This document shows positions 1,240 to 61,758 of a DNA stretch of 64,000 bases, in pieces; the stretch's first letter is position 1; each line of letters starts with the position of its first letter. Both the position numbers and the translations under genes were made by a program. The stretch is from the NCBI GenBank assembly GCA_951406725.2, contig OX597820.1, forward strand, positions 100,502,001 to 100,566,000, read 5' to 3'. The notes below the pieces were generated by a model. The model did no database searches. It was given only the letters and a program-made list of their open reading frames with translations, and was not told the origin of the DNA. Origin of the DNA: Octopus vulgaris. Lineage: Eukaryota.

Positions 1240-2201
1240 TGTGTCTCTTAGGCATTGAACTGATGAGCTTTGTGGAACTTCTGCCCACTTTTCATTCAAC
1301 AATCAAAAGAATTCACCTTTAGCTTTAGGTTTCTGTTGAGTTTTTCGTATAGCTCTATCTCATATACTCCATAGATTTTCAATTGGGTTCATGTCAAGAG
1401 ATTGGCTGGGCCAAGTAAGCTTTTTCATCTCATTTTCAGTCAGCCATTGTTGATTCCTTTTCGCTGTATGGCATGGAGCCCCATCTTCCATGAATAAAAA
1501 CTCATTTTTCGTTATGTTATTATGTGAATACATCGGAAGTAGTCGTTGCTTAAGTATTTCGATGTATTTTGCAGAGTTTATGGTTCCAATACATTCAATC
1601 AGCTTAAAACGACCATTGCTGGTGACAGCTCCCCATACCATTACAGAGATACCGCCATGTTTCACAGTTGGTTGGAGTTGTTTCAAATCAAATTCTTGAT
1701 TGGGAAGCCTCCTGATCCAAACACGTCTACTGTCTGAAAATAATGCAAATCTGGGTTCATCTGAGAAAATCACGCTATCCTAAAATGAACTGGATTTCTC
1801 TGACATCTCCTCATTTCTTTCTTTTCATGATATTAATTGGTTGAAAGAGAGGTTTTCTTCTAGCGGCTTTTCCATAATATCTAAGCTTATGCAGATATGT
1901 AACACATGTTCTTGGACTAACTTCTAGCTGTTTTGCAATATCAGAAACCTTTGAACGGGGTTCGTTTTTCACAATTCTCTTCAAACAGTGACGCTTCCTT
2001 TCCAAGTCCCAGGTCAGCTGGGATGAGAATTTGTTGATTCTTTCCTTGGCTTTGGAATTGCACTATAATTCTATTTACAGTAGCAAAAGGAATTTGAAGA
2101 TTTTCGGCAATTTTTCGCTGGCAAAGACCAGCCTCAGATTGCCCAACAATACGACCTCTTTGAAAATCTGACAGTTCTGCTGAATTTTTTGTGCATGGCA
2201 T
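1240..2201 (-). mobile_element. Tc1-family (DD34E) transposase pseudogene
   Basis: Three frameshifted ORF pieces: [12 protein letters not shown] (HTH); RRKPL; IFSDE...PTVKHGGISVMVWG...EDGAPCH-(34 aa)-NPIENLW. Confidence 0.92.
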
Positions 2202-2259
2202 GGTTACTCTTTGCAAATGTTTAATATAATGGCACCTGGAATGAAAAAGAATAATTACA

Positions 2260-2465
2260 TTGTATGTTTGTCTGTCTGTGTTTGTCCCCCACCATCGATT
2301 AACAACTGATGTTGGTGTGTTTATGTTTTCCATACATTTGCAGTTCGGCAAGGGAGACCGATGGAATGAGTACTAGGCTTACAAAGAATAAGTCCTGGGG
2401 TTGATTTGTTCGACTAAAAGAATGGCTACAGTCAAATGACTGAAACAAGTAAAAGAATAAAAGAA
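2260..2465 (+). mobile_element. 3' half of SINE family A
   Basis: Matches 40150-40388; ends tgactgaaacaagtaaaagaataaaag. Confidence 0.75.
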
Positions 2466-18220: not shown

Positions 18221-18223
<3 letters not shown>

Positions 18224-18487
18224 AAATTTAAAGGACTGACCACTAAAAGTGGATGGTCAATATGCTAGATATAGACGTCAAAAATCGCTATTTTCCACGA
18301 AGAATGTGTTCTCACATTCTTTGTGGAAAATAGCGATTTTTGACGTCTATATCTAGCATATTGACCATCCACTTTTAGTGGTCAGTCCTTTAAATTTTGT
18401 AGGTAAAAAATATTTTAATCTTTGGATTTTTTTTAATATGCTAGGCCACTGGTTTTAATTGATTAATATCAATTTCTACCCTTATTC

Positions 18488-18490
<3 letters not shown>
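18221..18490. mobile_element. Fold-back insert in (TA)n: 180-bp palindrome plus ~90-bp single-copy tail
   Basis: Arms 18221-18308 and 18313-18400 (88 bp, one mismatch), 4-nt loop. The tail is related to the reverse complement of 3670-3735. Confidence 0.85.
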
Positions 18491-29997: not shown

Positions 29998-30432
29998 AAT
30001 GATCATGATGACGATGATGACATCTAGTACACTCTGTAAAGTGGTTGTTATTAGGAAGGGGATCCAGCTGTTGAAACCACACCAAGAGAGACATTAGGGC
30101 TTAGCGAAGTCTTTTCACCCATCAATTCTCGATGAACCATCCAATGTCACTCTAACATTTAATATTTATGTCTGCATTTATCTACCTATCTACATCCACA
30201 GACACACACTCATTGCAAAATGGAAGAAATCCTTTTCAGTATTATGGAAAACACCCAAATTTCTCCTACTGCTAAAAATGACATTGCACCTAGTAGGAAA
30301 AAGATTAAAGCTATGTGCTTTAATACTGAGTTATTTTTCAATGCTCCTAACTTCACTTATTTTGGTGCATATAAAACTGAAAAACTCTGTAAATATATGT
30401 AATTTCAAGCTATTTTTCCTTCAAGATTAATT

Positions 30433-31178
30433 GTTATCGCCAAGCTAACATGGCAGTCCAGGAAAATAGGATAAATGCTGCCATTGATTAGCTCCAAGAG
30501 GCCATCGTCTTTAGCTAGCTATGTGACACACAAACCTGTGTCCATTATAACCTTCGAACAGGGGAGGTCAGCCGCTTCCCCTTGCTGGACTGGCATCTAG
30601 AAACTAGTTTTGGGGTATTTGCCCCTTATCAACGGAGAGCAGGCGAACCCAGCAGGCATTGCTGCTGACCATCTATTTGAAGGATTATTTACCTAAATTC
30701 GGTGGAATATATCCACTGGTCTTCAAAAATAGAAATAGTAATATTTCTAAGTCTCTCTAAAGGAGAAGGTTATAATGGACACAGGTTTGTGAGTCACTTA
30801 GCTAGCTAGAGGCAATGGCCTCTTGGAGCTAAGCAATGGCAGCATTTGTCTTATTTTCCTGGAGTGCCATGTTAGCTTGGCAATAACTATTAGAGAGACT
30901 TAGAAATATGAGTGATGCCTGCTGAGTTTGGCTACTCTACATAGATAAGGGGCAAATATCCCAAAACTAGTTTGTAGATGCCAGACCAGCAAGGGGAAGC
31001 GGCTGACCTCCTCTGTTCAAAGGTTATAATGGACAGAGGTTTGTGTGTCACATAGCTAGCTAGAGACGATGGCCCCTTGGAGCTAATCAACAGCAGCATT
31101 CGTCCTATTTTCCTGGACTGCCACGTTAGCTTGGTGATCTGCTGCCATAGTCTCCTTTAGAAAGATTTAGAAATATTA
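30433..31178. mobile_element. Penelope pLTR-like composite: one unit facing two inverted copies, with two hammerhead-like motifs
   Basis: 30433-30660 is inverted at 30914-31138 and partially at 30766-30888. Motifs at 30597-30637 (-) and 30937-30977 (+). Confidence 0.75.
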
Positions 31179-31559: not shown

Positions 31560-32000
31560 GCTTTTATTTTGTTTGTATATTGTATATTTTATTTCGTTTT
31601 TATATTTGGATTTTTGGTTTGCAAGAATTCCTTATACGGATTCGATTCTTGTTGAAGCATTTTTTTTTGTGTGTGTCTGGGGAGAGTCATTCTGATTTAA
31701 TGCCTTATTAATTAACACACTCACTGGTTCAATTTCCACTCATTCACTTATTATTTTTTCTAAAATTTTCATTGCTTCTTGCAAGCTCTTCAATAGTGAT
31801 TGACTCTATCTGTTATCAGAGCAGCGATCTTTTTGTTTCAAGAAAGAACTCAGCTCTGATAACAGACAAAATCAACGACTATGAAAGAGCTTGCAAGAAG
31901 CAATGAAAATTTTAGAAAAAAAGAAAAAATGAGTGGAAATTGAACCAGTGAGTGTGTCAATTGATAAGGCATTATAGAGAATGACTCTCCCCAGACACAA
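31560..32000. mobile_element. Fold-back pLTR-like element, ~150-bp arms plus one-sided extension
   Basis: gtgtctggggagagtcattct (31673) is inverted at agaatgactctccccagacac (31998); homologous to 3256-3587. Confidence 0.8.
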
Positions 32001-35310: not shown

Positions 35311-35311
<1 letters not shown>

Positions 35312-35477
35312 TCTTAACTCTTTTACTTGAGCAAATCGACCCCAGGACTTATTCTTTGTAAGCCTAGTACTTATTCTATCAGTCTTTTTTGCTGAGCTGC
35401 TAAGTTACAGGGACATAAACACACCACCATTGGTTGTCAAGCGATGTTGGGGGGTGGGGGACAAACACAAACACATC

Positions 35478-35521
<44 letters not shown>

Positions 35522-35635
35522 GAAGTGGAAATCCACAACACCATCTCTTCGGTTATCTGGCCAGATAACCGAAGAGATGGTGTTGTGGATTTCCACTTCG
35601 GCATCTGAAACTCAGAGTTTTATCTTGACTATTGA

Positions 35636-35680
<45 letters not shown>

Positions 35681-35841
35681 TATGATGGGCTTCTTTCAGT
35701 TCCGTCTACCAAATCCACTTACAAGGCTTTGGTCGGCCCAAGGCTATAGTAGAAGACACTTGCCCAAGGTGGCACGCAATGGGAATGAACCCGGAACCAT
35801 GTGGTTGGTAAGCAAGCTACTTACCACACAGCCACTCCTGT
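35311..35841 (-). mobile_element. SINE family A whose internal (TA)n carries a fold-back insert
   Basis: Reverse complement of the 39900-40388 architecture. Confidence 0.85.
35563..35625 (+). ncRNA. Type I hammerhead-like motif (U4C variant) in the 35520-35636 insert
   Basis: AGATAA-CCGAAGA-[GATG...CATC]-T-GAAA-CTCaGAG-TT-TTATCT. Confidence 0.6.
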
Positions 35842-36255
35842 GAGTATAAAAAACAGACAAAATACCACTAAGCATGAGGTGCTGGCATTGCTGTAAAAAT
35901 CAGAGTTGAAAAATCCTTTTTTTGATGCTGACTTTTACAACAATGCCGGTACCTCATATGCCCTATTCATCATCATCATCATTTAGCGTCCGCTTTCCAT
36001 GCTAGCATGAAATTAATTATAAAATTTTCGATTTGCCATTTATCAGCTTTTGCTTGTTGGCCACTTATGTTATTGTTGTTTTTATTTATTTTACTATTAC
36101 TAATAATAATAATATCTATATAAATATTTTTTGAATATTTATTCATTTATGAAATTTATATACTGACACCAATTTTGAATTTGGTGCAAGCTTTTCAATG
36201 GTTACCAGGCACAATAAAACGAGTAAAGTTTTTAACCCTAGGTATATAGTGAGAC

Positions 36256-36309
36256 CTGCTGATGAGAATGAAGGGAGTTAATCTTAAAATTCAAAATCAA
36301 TTGATTCAG
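36256..36309 (+). ncRNA. Type I hammerhead-like motif with G12A (CpG-type decay)
   Basis: CTG-CTGATGA-[GAAT...ATTC]-aAAA-TCAATTGA-TT-CAG. Confidence 0.55.
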
Positions 36310-36578
36310 TGATATCTATTTCCTCATTCTGCAGTTTTCTGCCAAGATGGTAAGTTAATTACTTTGCTTGTCGCCCAATTTCTGTTGTGCCTATTGTATT
36401 TCCAGTGATTGATGGTTTATTAGAGGATTTTTTGATTCTGACTTTTACAGCAATGCCGACGCCTCGTGTGCCCGAAGATAGATCTGTATACATATGTGTG
36501 TGTGTGTATGTGTGTGTGCGTGCATATATTATATATGTCTCTATATAATACATGAATAGGCACTATATATATATATAT

Positions 36579-36729
36579 AAGGCACCAGAATTTAATATGG
36601 TATTATCCATATAATTCAAAATGGGGTTATTATCACCCCATTTTGAATTATATGGATAATACCATATTAAATTCTGGTGCCTTTAACTTAAGTACCATAT
36701 TCAACTGAATCTAAATTTTTACTGAACTT
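36579..36729. mobile_element. Fold-back insert in (TA)n: perfect 49-bp arms plus ~46-bp tail
   Basis: Arms 36579-36627 and 36635-36683. Confidence 0.85.
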
Positions 36730-44706: not shown

Positions 44707-44883
44707 ATAGGACAATCAGTAAGTTGTCAGAGTTTCAAATGGCAGAGGTAAGAGCCTCAAGGCATTTTCATTGGTTATTTTGATGATAGTCGATGAAAAT
44801 ACCTTGAAGCTCTTAGTTCCGGCTTTTGAAACTCTGAGTTGTATTATGATAACTTACTGATTGTCCTATACTAAATATTTCTT
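44707..44883 (+). mobile_element. Fold-back insert in (TA)n with a hammerhead-like motif at 44783-44847
   Basis: taggacaatcagtaagtt is inverted as aacttactgattgtccta; motif tCGATGA-[AAA...TTT]-GAAA-CTCtGAG-TT. Confidence 0.65.
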
Positions 44884-44906: not shown

Positions 44907-45011
44907 ATCACCTGAGGAGATGTATATGCACCTATGATGCATTACAACGGTTTGTACAGCATCTCACCTGCAAAGTACTAGTGCATGATGGGTCGAAATG
45001 ATTGTAGTGAT
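44907..45011 (+). ncRNA. Hammerhead-like motif with long stem II in a TA-flanked insert (44909-45050)
   Basis: ATCAC-CTGAGGA-[GA...TC]-GAAA-TGATTG-TA-GTGAT. TGATTG is CGATCG after two CpG transitions, as at 34069. AATAAA follows at 45016. Confidence 0.55.
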
Positions 45012-45051
45012 TCTGAATAAAGAGTTTAGTGAATTCCATTTTTTTAATATT

Positions 45052-45091
<40 letters not shown>

Positions 45092-59160: not shown

Positions 59161-59254
59161 ATAATAATGATGATGATGATAATAATAATGATAATAATAA
59201 TAATAATAGTAATAATAATAATAATAATAATAATGATAATAATAATAATAATAA

Positions 59255-60130
59255 TTTTCCTGCATGGAAAATACCCTAACTGCCTGTCCAAGCCAGATAT
59301 TGATCAAAATGTAACACACCAATGGCTACAAGGGACAGGTCTGAAAGGGGAAACAGAAGGGTTTGTTATTGCAGTGCAAGATCAGAGCTTACCTATCAGA
59401 AACTACAATGCAAACATCCTTAAAGATGAATCTGACCCCTTGTGCAGAATTTGTGAAAAATTCAAAGAGACAATTGATCATGTTGTTTCTGGCTGCCCAG
59501 TCCTCGCTGAAAAGGAGTACCTCATAGGACATGACAGACGAAGGCAGTACATCCACTGGAATGCTTGTAAATACAACAAAATTAAATCCCATGATAAGTG
59601 GTACAGGCATCATCCAGAGGATGTAGTAAATGGTGAGGGCGTCACCATCCTTTGGAACTTCTCAATACAAACAGACAGAAAAATTGACTCCAATTGACCA
59701 GACATTGTGATCAAGGACTACAACAGAGAAACTTGTCTGTTAATAACTATGTCTGTCCCACAAGATCAAAATGTCTCAAGAAAAGAATATGAAAAGCTTT
59801 CTCACTATAAAGATCTGCAAATTGAAATAATGTGGAAGCTTAATACTATGATAATACCAGTGGTAATTGGCATGTTGGGAATGATAAAGAAGGGAGCTGA
59901 GAAGTATATTAAGCAACTCCTTGGTAACTTCAATCTTCGTGAACTACAAAAGATAACTTTGATGGGTACAGCCCATATACTATGGAAAGCAATTTCCATC
60001 TAAAATGGAATAAATGTGGTGATAATTTTAGCATGCATAGCAAAACAAAAGTGCCTTTGCTACTCTTGGCTTCTGGAAGATGCCTGGTAGAGGCAGCTGA
60101 AAAAAATGTTATAATGAAAAGAAACCATAA
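59255..60130 (+). mobile_element. R4/Dong-clade LINE 3' part, copy 2 (CCHC zinc knuckle + RLE endonuclease)
   Basis: LHGKY..WL..GLKGETEGFVIAVQDQSL..CRICEKFKETIDHVVSGC..ILWNFSIQTDR..PDIV..KEYEKLSHYKDL..IPVVIG.LG..GTAHIL; preceded by (TAA)n. Confidence 0.9.
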
Positions 60131-60163: not shown

Positions 60164-60870
60164 CTAACTCTTCATAAATCTAAAATGTTTGGCAAGTTCT
60201 GTTGAACTACTGACATCATATCTGTGCCCATTGAATCTTTTGTTTAATTGTTCTGTTATACATCCAACATAAATAAAGTTGTGTTTGGTGCATTCTGCTG
60301 CATACACCAAATGGGAATCCCTACATGTCCCACCTTCCATGTAAATCATAACATTTCTGTTATGATCCCTGATGAAATTGACTTGACTCATGTTGTTGCA
60401 GAATGATTAGGGCTTACCTCTCTTGCAGCTGTTTTTCAAAGTACAGCATGCAGAAACTCTAGTGTTAGTTTTTTTTTGAGTCAGAAGTAGAGGTTAATAG
60501 CTCTCTCATATTTTAATTCCATCTAAAGGCTACAACAGATGGCTGAGGAAACAAGGATATTTTTCTGCAACATGCTGGTAACTTTCCTGTAACACTTTTG
60601 AAATGCCAGCGAAATTTCAGTACCAGTTAATCACTAAAAGAATTCTGTCACATATTGTACTTTGTTTGCTAAAATTATGCATGAAAATTTGACTTCCTTT
60701 GCTAATCTTAGTTATGCCATTTGCAATTTCCGTTAATCATGATTCACTGTAACTGCATTTGATATAATGGTGTACGAAAGTATTTTTATGTTTCCAGTCA
60801 TCCCCTATATCAGTACAAACCTGCTTTATCTTCAAACGTTGGGATTTCAGATTTGACCAAGTTATATGAT
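60164..60870 (-). mobile_element. Penelope-like fossil: RT thumb/linker plus GIY-YIG endonuclease
   Basis: LKSQRLKIKQVCT (cf. YSQ.LRI.RIC); FPQPSVVAFRWN*NMRELL; TCRDSHLVYAAECTKHNFIYVG..EQLNKRFNGHR. Confidence 0.8.
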
Positions 60871-60954
60871 GTGATATCATTCAACCAATAAAATATCTTT
60901 AACAATCACATTGCATTCGTTGTATTGTCTAATAATAATAATAATAATCACAAT

Positions 60955-61758
60955 AAATCCAAACTAAAACAACAACAGCAACGGACCACGATAAAACGAT
61001 GGCAAGAAAAGCCCCTTCATGGCAAATACTGGACTAAACTAAATGCAAAACAAATAGACAGAGAAAAATCCCAGCAATGGTTGAGAAGCTCAGGACTCAA
61101 AGCAGAGACTGAAGGACTTTTAATTGCAGCACAAGACCAAAGCCTCCCCACTAGAATTTACCAAAAACATGTAATGAAAAGAAATATAACAGGTAACTGC
61201 AGAATATGTGGAGATGGACAAGAAACAATAAATCATATTATGTCTGGCTGCCCAGTCCTGGCTAAGAAGGAATATATTCACAGACAGAACAGCCATATTC
61301 TGGGATATGCCAATACACACAGATAGAGAAATTAAGGCCAGTAGGCCAGATATAGTTGTCAGAGATCATGAAGGAAAAAAATGCTTTCTAATTGATGTAT
61401 CAATACCAGCAGATGACAACGTTTCTCTAAAAGAAATGGAGAAAGTTTCAAAACACAAAGACCTGGAAATAGAGGTAACTCGAAAATGGAATCTTAAAAC
61501 AAAAACAATTCCTATCATGGTAGGTGCATTAGGCATGATAAAAAATATTCAGACAAATACATGACAAAAACACCAGGACTTACAAATATATATAACATAC
61601 AGAAAAATTGCACTACTGGGCACTGCACACATCCTACGCAAAACACTTTCAATACAGTAACCATAAGAGAATCACAGCAAACCACAGCACATACCCAAGG
61701 CACACAGAGCTGCGCTCGGTAGTGAAGTGAAAGCATGTTATAAAAATAAAACTACTGA
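60955..61758 (+). mobile_element. R4/Dong-clade LINE 3' part, copy 3
   Basis: WQEKPLHGKY..WLRSSGLKAETEGLLIAAQDQSL..CRICGDGQETINHIMSGC..RPDIVVRD..CFLIDVSIP; (TAA)n on both sides. Confidence 0.9.

What the first reader, a model, noticed from the sequence alone, without database searches (positions are those of the whole stretch)
35520..35636. 117-bp element: perfect 82-bp palindrome overlapping a complete hammerhead-like fold, inside a SINE's TA tract
35520-35601 is a loopless perfect palindrome. Its right arm plus tail forms the motif (6-bp stem I, CCGAAGA, GATG/CATC stem II, GAAA, CTCaGAG, GUU). The left arm is the exact antisense of the core, so hairpin and ribozyme folds are mutually exclusive. 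It is close to a minimal ribozyme-only insertion and shares GAAACTCwGAGTT with 44828.
Basis: partly seen in the sequence, partly recalled or inferred. Interest (0 to 1): 0.7.

Follow-up and report, generated by a model that had tools for sequence, protein, structure and literature searches.

The report
Tiny Penelope retrotransposon scar with hammerhead
This 117-base insert in a TA repeat is one of very many related copies and is most likely the ordinary, heavily truncated tail end of a Penelope-like jumping gene, whose hammerhead ribozyme motif is predicted to be locked shut by a mirror-image copy likely made during insertion rather than being a designed switch.

Summary
35520-35601 is a perfect 82-bp palindrome, the 117 bp sit exactly between two (TA)n tracts inside a SINE, and the right arm plus tail is the strongest type I hammerhead match in the window (0 such matches in 20 resampled windows). 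It is not a lone ribozyme insertion. Public runs hold thousands of related contigs; relatives continue on both sides, and others carry inversions with different breakpoints. The palindrome's centre is a 6-bp self-complementary word native to the parent sequence. Inverted 5'-truncated copy, 35-bp one-sided tail, (TA)n target and this hammerhead type are the published signature of Penelope-like elements (PLEs), best matched by the Hydra clade: 14 core/stem III bases are identical to Penelope-3_HM. The antisense arm does exclude the ribozyme fold, but most likely as a by-product of insertion. This copy also departs from the canonical core (U4C, irregular stem II closure), and the SINE promoter points the other way. 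None of 7 other SINE copies carries it. No link to an RT/endonuclease ORF could be shown, and cleavage was not tested. Verdict: new member of a known kind, low interest.

The parts
35520..35560 (-). Inverted arm: exact reverse complement of 35561-35601 (inverted, 5'-truncated copy lacking the tail)
   Evidence: 41 of 41 pairs
35558..35563 (.). TGGCCA, self-complementary word at the palindrome centre, native to the parent sequence; likely annealing site
   Evidence: loose ends before 35558 and behind 35563; only 6-bp palindrome in right arm plus tail
35561..35636 (+). Forward piece: 3' end region of a PLE-type element, 5'-truncated
   Evidence: family, upstream and downstream continuation
35563..35625 (+). 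Type I hammerhead motif, Hydra-PLE-like; C at position 4, U or unpaired base at 11.1, 1-nt loop III; predicted cut after 35619
35602..35636 (+). 35-bp one-sided tail (holds the 3' half of the hammerhead)
   Evidence: 30-40 bp tail described in PMC8557442 Fig. 2 legend
35484..35519 (.). (TA)n target tract, left
35637..35674 (.). (TA)n target tract, right
35675..35845 (-). Host SINE, head part, with Pol III A-box-like (35834) and B-box-like (35791) motifs on the minus strand
35311..35483 (-). Host SINE, tail part
44710..44883 (+). Older, decayed insert of the same build between TA tracts: arms about 71% alike, same hammerhead type (GAAACTCTGAGTT at 44828), tail of roughly 17-30 bp

Best explanation
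The 117 bp are most likely a heavily 5'-truncated insertion made by the reverse transcriptase/endonuclease of a Hydra-type Penelope-like retrotransposon, which likely cut the SINE's internal (TA)n tract and likely copied only the hammerhead-bearing 3' end of its RNA twice, once in each direction. Shown: the anatomy, the (TA)n site, membership of a very large sequence family, the parent's continuation on both sides, the native TGGCCA at the centre, other copies with different inversion breakpoints, and that the long hairpin excludes the hammerhead fold in folding calculations. Inferred: both target strands were nicked and primed cDNA, one cDNA starting near 35636 and the other near 35601 (35 nt apart, giving the tail); both stopped at TGGCCA, annealed through it and were filled in, which yields a loopless perfect palindrome. 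Inferred: at this locus the ribozyme does nothing. A plus-strand transcript would make the antisense arm first, a minus-strand transcript (the SINE's direction) has no GAAA/stem III behind the palindrome, and the motif would need a dimer. Whether the template was an autonomous element or a non-coding derivative is open.
For: Family: 3612 contigs laid in X1 (76% of run read), 1087 in X2, 61 in X15, 26 reads in X23; summed depth peaks at 2.18 million in X1 against 19-112 for the single contigs listed, which suggests on the order of 10^4 copies, though the tool warns this is no copy number. Parent continues: loose ends before 35558 in all 4 runs, behind 35631-35638 in all 4. Ten listed joints link the inverted arm (35546-35563) to forward positions 35596-35611; overlap at the joints is 6,2,1,5,3,2,0,0,0,0 letters by the tool, against a background mean of 0.79, P about 0.01. 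Variation fits a hammerhead: of 13 variable places, 10 lie in 35583-35605 (distal stem II and loop), one in stem I, and the two in the core move to canonical (35570 C>T, 35606 T>C); 35583 T>G with 35598 T>C makes a G-C pair; position 7 is A, T or C in loose ends. Literature: inverted 5'-truncated copy and 30-40 bp one-sided tail (PMC8557442); inverted pLTR 37 bp shorter than the direct one, palindromes at inverted junctions (PMC3846280); both strands cut and extended, tail = stretch between two RT start sites, hammerhead dispensable for insertion in vitro (PMC11167929); 26 of 27 Hydra families list (TA)n targets, 5 of 26 Hydra hammerhead rows have stem III ACTC-N-GAGT, and Penelope-3_HM is identical to 35606-35619.
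Against: No RT or GIY-YIG ORF was linked to this sequence; contigs could not be retrieved and no own genome is held. It is not the published octopus family: Hydra-1_oBim shares the core and first stem II bases but has another stem III. In the 19 of 26 Hydra rows with a pyrimidine before GAA there is also an extra base on the 5' side; here the 3' base is unmatched or forces a bulge. This copy ends 11 nt after stem I while relatives run further, so its right end is not shown to be a preferred RT start. The ten joints are only those the tool listed, six have 'between: not known', sides are 20-27 letters, and they could be deletions in palindromic copies. No listed contig spans the whole stretch. 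A target-site duplication cannot be read inside (TA)n.
Confidence: 0.85

Rival explanations
1. Same machinery, but the inverted arm arose by self-priming (snap-back of one cDNA or antisense template at TGGCCA), as proposed by Arkhipova et al. 2013, not by annealing of two cDNAs. Compatible with the best explanation's identity claim; it replaces one inferred step.
For: PMC3846280 reads palindromes at inverted junctions as self-priming. Asymmetric joints with short overlaps are also what snap-back would give.
Against: A snap-back centred inside TGGCCA would need a hairpin with a loop of 0-2 bases, whereas two self-complementary ends anneal without a loop (inference). Both strands are extended in vitro.
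Confidence: 0.3
2. The template was a non-autonomous hammerhead RNA (non-LTR retrozyme or SINE-like PLE derivative) mobilised in trans, not the 3' end of a coding element. Also compatible with the best explanation.
For: Very high copy level with core decay in the dominant subfamily (C4 in about 95% and U11.1 in about 65% of depth in X1 and X2); 5' ends of inverted arms cluster at 35558-35575. Retrozymes are reported to derive from PLE pLTRs (bioRxiv 10.64898/2026.07.22.740005, abstract and introduction).
Against: No tandem arrangement in the window; upstream and downstream loose ends do not match each other within the 30 letters shown; a 573-base contig in both X1 and X2 runs about 500 bases upstream, content unseen.
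Confidence: 0.3
3. The palindrome formed after insertion (fold-back repair of a break at the cruciform-prone TA tract), or the unit is a DNA foldback/MITE that captured a hammerhead.
For: Perfect arms; several palindromic inserts in TA tracts in this window.
Against: One arm carries a 35-bp tail the other lacks, arms are not terminal repeats of a fixed unit, breakpoints vary between copies, and the pattern equals the published PLE one.
Confidence: 0.08
4. A functional antisense-gated ribozyme switch or ribozyme-only mobile unit riding in the SINE.
For: Folds are mutually exclusive; the motif is beyond chance.
Against: The hairpin wins by about 70 kcal/mol with no route to switch; 0 of 7 other SINE copies carry it; SINE boxes point antisense; U4C considerably lowers activity in vitro (PMC3088659 passage); single PLE minimal hammerheads showed no cleavage (PMC4209133).
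Confidence: 0.03
5. The inverted arm is an assembly or library artefact.
For: Arms are 100% identical; no listed contig spans the whole stretch.
Against: Contigs of X1 and X2 cross the centre (for example 35537-35627 without gaps), and X1 has single-contig-level depth in both TA flanks (41 left, 31 right). 44710-44866 shows the same build with aged arms.
Confidence: 0.03

Closest known systems
Hydra-clade Penelope-like elements (Craig et al. 2021, PMC8557442), e.g. Penelope-3_HM, Hydra-1_aJap, Hydra-1_oBim, Penelope-13_HM
   Same: (TA)n target; type I hammerhead close to the 3' end with 3-4 bp stem III and tiny loop; 14 nt identical to Penelope-3_HM; Penelope-13_HM also has an inverted 5'-truncated copy with an antisense hammerhead.
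   Different: No ORF seen; different family from Hydra-1_oBim; C at position 4; one unmatched base at the stem II closure; loop II about 22 nt with its own hairpin, against 3-10 nt in the Hydra rows.
Inverted-pLTR/tail insertion structure of EN+ PLEs (Adineta Pen2a, PMC3846280; Anolis Poseidon PAc, PMC11167929)
   Same: Head-to-head inverted copy shorter by about 35 bp, palindromic junction, AT-rich target.
   Different: Here the whole insert is only 117 bp, so the inverted copy falls on the hammerhead core; no TSD readable.
PLE minimal hammerheads (Cervera and de la Pena 2014, PMC4209133)
   Same: Type I, near-palindromic stem III implying dimer action; G10.1-U11.1 occurs in several natural rows of Fig. 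S3; most occur as single motifs from truncated PLEs.
   Different: Lacks the usual unpaired base between A9 and 10.1; has the extra base on the 3' side instead.
Animal non-LTR retrozymes
   Same: Non-coding, type I hammerhead, high copy, PLE-related.
   Different: No tandem units or second sense hammerhead here.

Membership tests
Hydra-clade PLE | Single ORF with RT (RWK, DKT motifs) and C-terminal GIY-YIG lacking CCHH; placement by RT/EN phylogeny | not testable with these tools
   No ORF in the insert; no host genome held; run contigs not retrievable
Hydra-clade PLE | Insertion into (TA)n | tested here: met
   also 44710-44883
Hydra-clade PLE | Canonical type I hammerhead near the 3' end | tested here: inconclusive
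   Type and stem III match and relatives have U4 and C11.1, but this copy has C4 and an irregular stem II closure; the parent's true 3' end was not seen
EN+ PLE insertion structure | 5' truncation | tested here: met
   Relatives continue upstream of 35558 in 4 of 4 runs
EN+ PLE insertion structure | Adjacent inverted 5'-truncated copy | tested here: met
EN+ PLE insertion structure | 30-40 bp tail at one end only | tested here: met
   35 bp
EN+ PLE insertion structure | Target-site duplication (optional in PLEs) | tested here: inconclusive
   Not readable inside (TA)n
Type I hammerhead ribozyme | Three stems around C3-U4-G5-A6-N7-G8-A9, G12-A13-A14-A15.1, U16.1-H17 | tested here: inconclusive
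   All present except U4 (C here) and one unmatched base at 11.1; canonical letters in relatives; no Rfam match
Type I hammerhead ribozyme | Self-cleavage at NUH | not testable with these tools
   No pile-up of ends in 26 RNA reads of relatives under 95% alike except one; too few to tell
Non-LTR retrozyme | Tandem units each with a type I hammerhead | tested here: not met
   Single sense motif at this locus; the parent's organisation elsewhere was not seen
MITE/foldback DNA element | Terminal inverted repeats at both ends, fixed termini, TSD | tested here: not met
   One-sided tail and variable breakpoints

The most novel reading that the evidence does not exclude
The family is an undescribed, roughly ten-thousand-copy non-coding mini-element that amplified with a catalytically degraded hammerhead (U4C, irregular stem II closure), and its many junctions show that PLE inverted arms form by annealing of two independently primed cDNAs rather than by self-priming. 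That would be a genome-scale natural read-out of an unsettled step of PLE insertion and in vivo evidence that hammerhead cleavage is dispensable.
Probability: 0.3. Interest if true: 0.5.

Novelty: new member of a known kind. Interest (0 to 1): 0.2.

Why it matters
As a single locus it matters little: it is TE debris, and a caution that palindrome-plus-ribozyme 'switches' in (TA)n tracts are the expected scar of PLE insertion. The family may be useful. Its short, abundant copies keep both junctions within about 100 bp, so RT start sites and the joining mechanism of PLEs (two cDNAs or self-priming) could be counted directly in an assembly, and the spread of a C4 subfamily bears on whether PLE hammerheads must cleave.

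Tried and rejected
Own genome: none held. Rfam: 0 at gathering; the weak miRNA matches reflect only the long hairpin. Collection scans for relatives with flanks: metagenome contigs 0 in two patterns, viral contigs 0, genome contigs 20 matches to an 18-mer, below the about 69 expected by chance, none extending beyond 29 bases: rejected. RNA run X23: 26 reads, both directions, all running on into unlike sequence, no end pile-up: uninformative for cleavage or for this locus. Pfam scan of 148 of 151 stop-to-stop frames (62 aa or more, low-complexity frames dropped beforehand) found no host gene above cut-off and no PLE ORF next to the insert; the only match above cut-off was a DDE transposase remnant. 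Text search of the Craig supplement for the 13-mer gave 0 because the hammerhead table splits motifs into columns and sequences are line-wrapped or cut; the match was seen by reading the table. Earlier findings: nothing by place, sequence or the long word list. tRNA scan: 0. SINE-passenger idea rejected. Not found in print as this specific family in searches; Repbase and Dfam were not available, so it may already be catalogued there.

Full report
Observation. The stretch 35520-35601 is a perfect, loopless 82-bp palindrome, and 35520-35636 sits exactly between (TA)n tracts 35484-35519 and 35637-35674. It folds at -78.8 kcal/mol, z = -14.9. My type I hammerhead descriptor, run on both strands of the window, reported two candidates, 35569-35619 and a weaker one at 44912-45006. 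Only the first has stem I >= 6, II >= 4 and III >= 4, and 20 of 20 order-2 Markov resamplings gave none. GAAACTCWGAGTT matches exactly at 35607 and 44828. The fold is not fully canonical: C at position 4, one unmatched pyrimidine (35605 or 35606) before GAAA, and a 1-nt loop III. Rfam finds no hammerhead.

Host context. The window looks like repeat-rich animal DNA; I recall the SINE as an octopus type, which no call tested. The flanks are two halves of one SINE with 7 other left-half and 9 or more right-half matches in the window at about 67-86% identity. Pol III box-like motifs lie on the minus strand (35834, 35791, patterns recalled), so SINE transcription would run antisense to the hammerhead. 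Of 7 other copies examined, 0 carry the insert (alignment scores 14-20 against 158). Six have both halves, and 3 of those have a long (TA)n at the same place. The SINE supplied a target, not a vehicle.

Family. One run search listed 24 runs, 20 holding part of 35311-35900; much of that share can be SINE. I laid 4 of them on 35510-35646 at 80% likeness. Laid: 3612 contigs in X1 (about 76% read), 1087 in X2, 61 in X15, and 26 raw RNA reads in X23 (about 6% read). Summed depth peaks at 2.18 million (X1) and 1.31 million (X2) over the GAAA region, against 19-112 for the single contigs listed. That suggests an order of 10^4 copies, although the tool states that the sum is no copy number. Loose ends show that relatives continue upstream of 35558 with T-rich sequence and downstream of 35631-35638 with AT-rich sequence. 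So TGGCCA (35558-35563) belongs to the parent, and it is the only 6-bp palindrome in the right arm plus tail. The 82-bp palindrome is centred on it. Ten listed joints connect the inverted arm at 35546-35563 to forward positions 35596-35611, so other copies have other breakpoints. Their overlaps (tool: 6,2,1,5,3,2,0,0,0,0) exceed a background mean of 0.79, P about 0.01. Caveats: more joints exist than were listed, six have unknown letters between, sides are short, and deletions in palindromic copies could look alike. No listed contig spans the whole stretch; X1 has depth 41 and 31 in the outer left and right TA flanks, which fits but does not prove this locus.

Is it a hammerhead by descent? 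Of 13 variable places, 10 lie in distal stem II and loop, one in stem I, and two in the core, both towards canonical: 35570 C>T (5% of depth in X1, 146 of 225 in X15, 14 of 14 reads in X23) and 35606 T>C (34% X1, 35% X2, 71% X15, 26 of 26 X23). The second suggests G35576 pairs with 35606 as 10.1-11.1 with C35605 bulged, a G-U wobble in this copy. 35583 T>G with 35598 T>C gives one compensatory-type pair. These are contig and read counts, not independent events, and alignment to this query favours similar copies. No indel reached 5% in any run, so the asymmetric closure is a family trait whose effect is untested.

Folding. In the full 117 nt the long hairpin (-78.8) excludes the hammerhead (-9.3 for my drawn target); stem II pair probability is about 1e-25, against 0.92 without the left arm, where stem I still reaches only 0.03. 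The stem III region dimerises at -9.8 kcal/mol. A minus-strand transcript has the same palindrome but no GAAA/stem III behind it.

Comparison with print. Craig et al. 2021 (PMC8557442; passages, section 11, supplement searches, supplement parts 2-3 of 59) describe PLE insertions as 5'-truncated, often with an adjacent inverted 5'-truncated copy and a 30-40 bp tail at one end. Ours has a 41-bp arm twice and a 35-bp tail. In their files 26 of 27 Hydra families target (TA)n; 5 of 26 Hydra hammerhead rows have stem III ACTC-N-GAGT; Penelope-3_HM is identical to 35606-35619; Penelope-13_HM has an inverted copy with an antisense hammerhead; Hydra-1_oBim from Octopus bimaculoides shares the core and first stem II bases but not stem III, so it is another family. 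Arkhipova et al. 2013 (PMC3846280, passages) report an inverted pLTR 37 bp shorter than the direct one and palindromes at inverted junctions, read as self-priming. Frangieh et al. 2024 (PMC11167929, parts 1-2 of 4) show both strands cut and extended, the tail as the stretch between two RT start sites, and a protein-assisted hammerhead not needed for insertion in vitro. Cervera and de la Pena 2014 (PMC4209133, parts 1-2 of 4, supplement parts 1-2 of 3) find most PLE hammerheads as single motifs from truncated elements; the single motif they tested did not cleave. Perreault et al. 2011 (PMC3088659, passages) note that U4C considerably lowers activity in vitro while allowing viroid infectivity. 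The retrozyme preprint (10.64898/2026.07.22.740005) was read in part 1 of 5; its supplements are closed. PMC6962438 and PMC13282606 (passages) only show that PLEs and hammerheads occur in cephalopods.

Mechanism. Shown: anatomy, target, family, native centre word, variable breakpoints, and fold exclusion in calculation. Inferred: a Hydra-type RT/EN nicked both strands of the SINE's (TA)n, primed two short cDNAs on the element's 3' end starting near 35636 and 35601, both ended in TGGCCA, annealed and were filled in. Relatives that align through 35638 suggest a TA overlap with the target at the right junction. Snap-back self-priming is the main alternative for the junction, and a non-coding template the main alternative for the source. 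The perfect arms, beside the 71% arms of the same build at 44710-44866 and about 80% identity among SINE copies, suggest a young insertion, though conversion between arms could also keep them identical.

Against this reading. No ORF is linked, so Hydra membership rests on non-coding features. The stem II closure differs from the Hydra rows. This copy's right end is not shown to be a preferred RT start. Collection scans gave no relatives with flanks, and the RNA data say nothing on cleavage.

Verdict. A real, correctly described feature, and most likely an ordinary PLE insertion scar: new member of a known kind, interest 0.2. The family, not the locus, could serve to test how PLE inverted junctions form.

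Noticed in passing
window 44710-44883: Older insert of the same build in a TA tract: arms about 71% alike, hammerhead of the same type in the right arm, a 12-nt deletion in the left arm. Its stem II closure looks symmetric, so probably a sister family.
   Followed up: partly
window 44908-45058: Insert after a TA tract with a weaker type I hammerhead match (core at 44912, long loop II) and an AATAAA; another likely PLE 3' end directly beside the 44710 insert.
   Followed up: partly
window 18222-18490 and 36580-36728: Two more palindrome-plus-tail inserts between TA tracts (arms about 89 and 51 bp, tails about 90 and 46 bp), no hammerhead by my descriptor; possibly scars of hammerhead-less PLEs such as Naiads.
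   Followed up: partly
window 36259-36310: Decayed hammerhead-like motif: CTGATGA, 4-bp stem II, AAAA in place of GAAA, palindromic TCAATTGA.
   Followed up: no
window 30428-31138 and 31754-31921: Long inverted-repeat structures (arms of 224, 128 and 79 bp, 87-91% complementary).
   Followed up: no
window 60167-60406 (-): GIY-YIG remnant (Pfam E 5e-4, below cut-off) with a PLE-like look, between two LINE-like zf-RVT remnants at 59161-59694 and 60892-61323; no hammerhead beside it.
   Followed up: partly
window 1363-2372 (-): Broken Tc1/mariner-type transposase (DDE_3 above cut-off, HTH matches below).
   Followed up: no
loose ends before 35558: In X1 and X2 the parent reads as a pyrimidine run and CAG just before the centre word, like a 3' splice site a few bases ahead of stem I; the D. 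virilis Penelope intron ends at helix I. The X23 consensus lacks the CAG. Untested.
   Followed up: no
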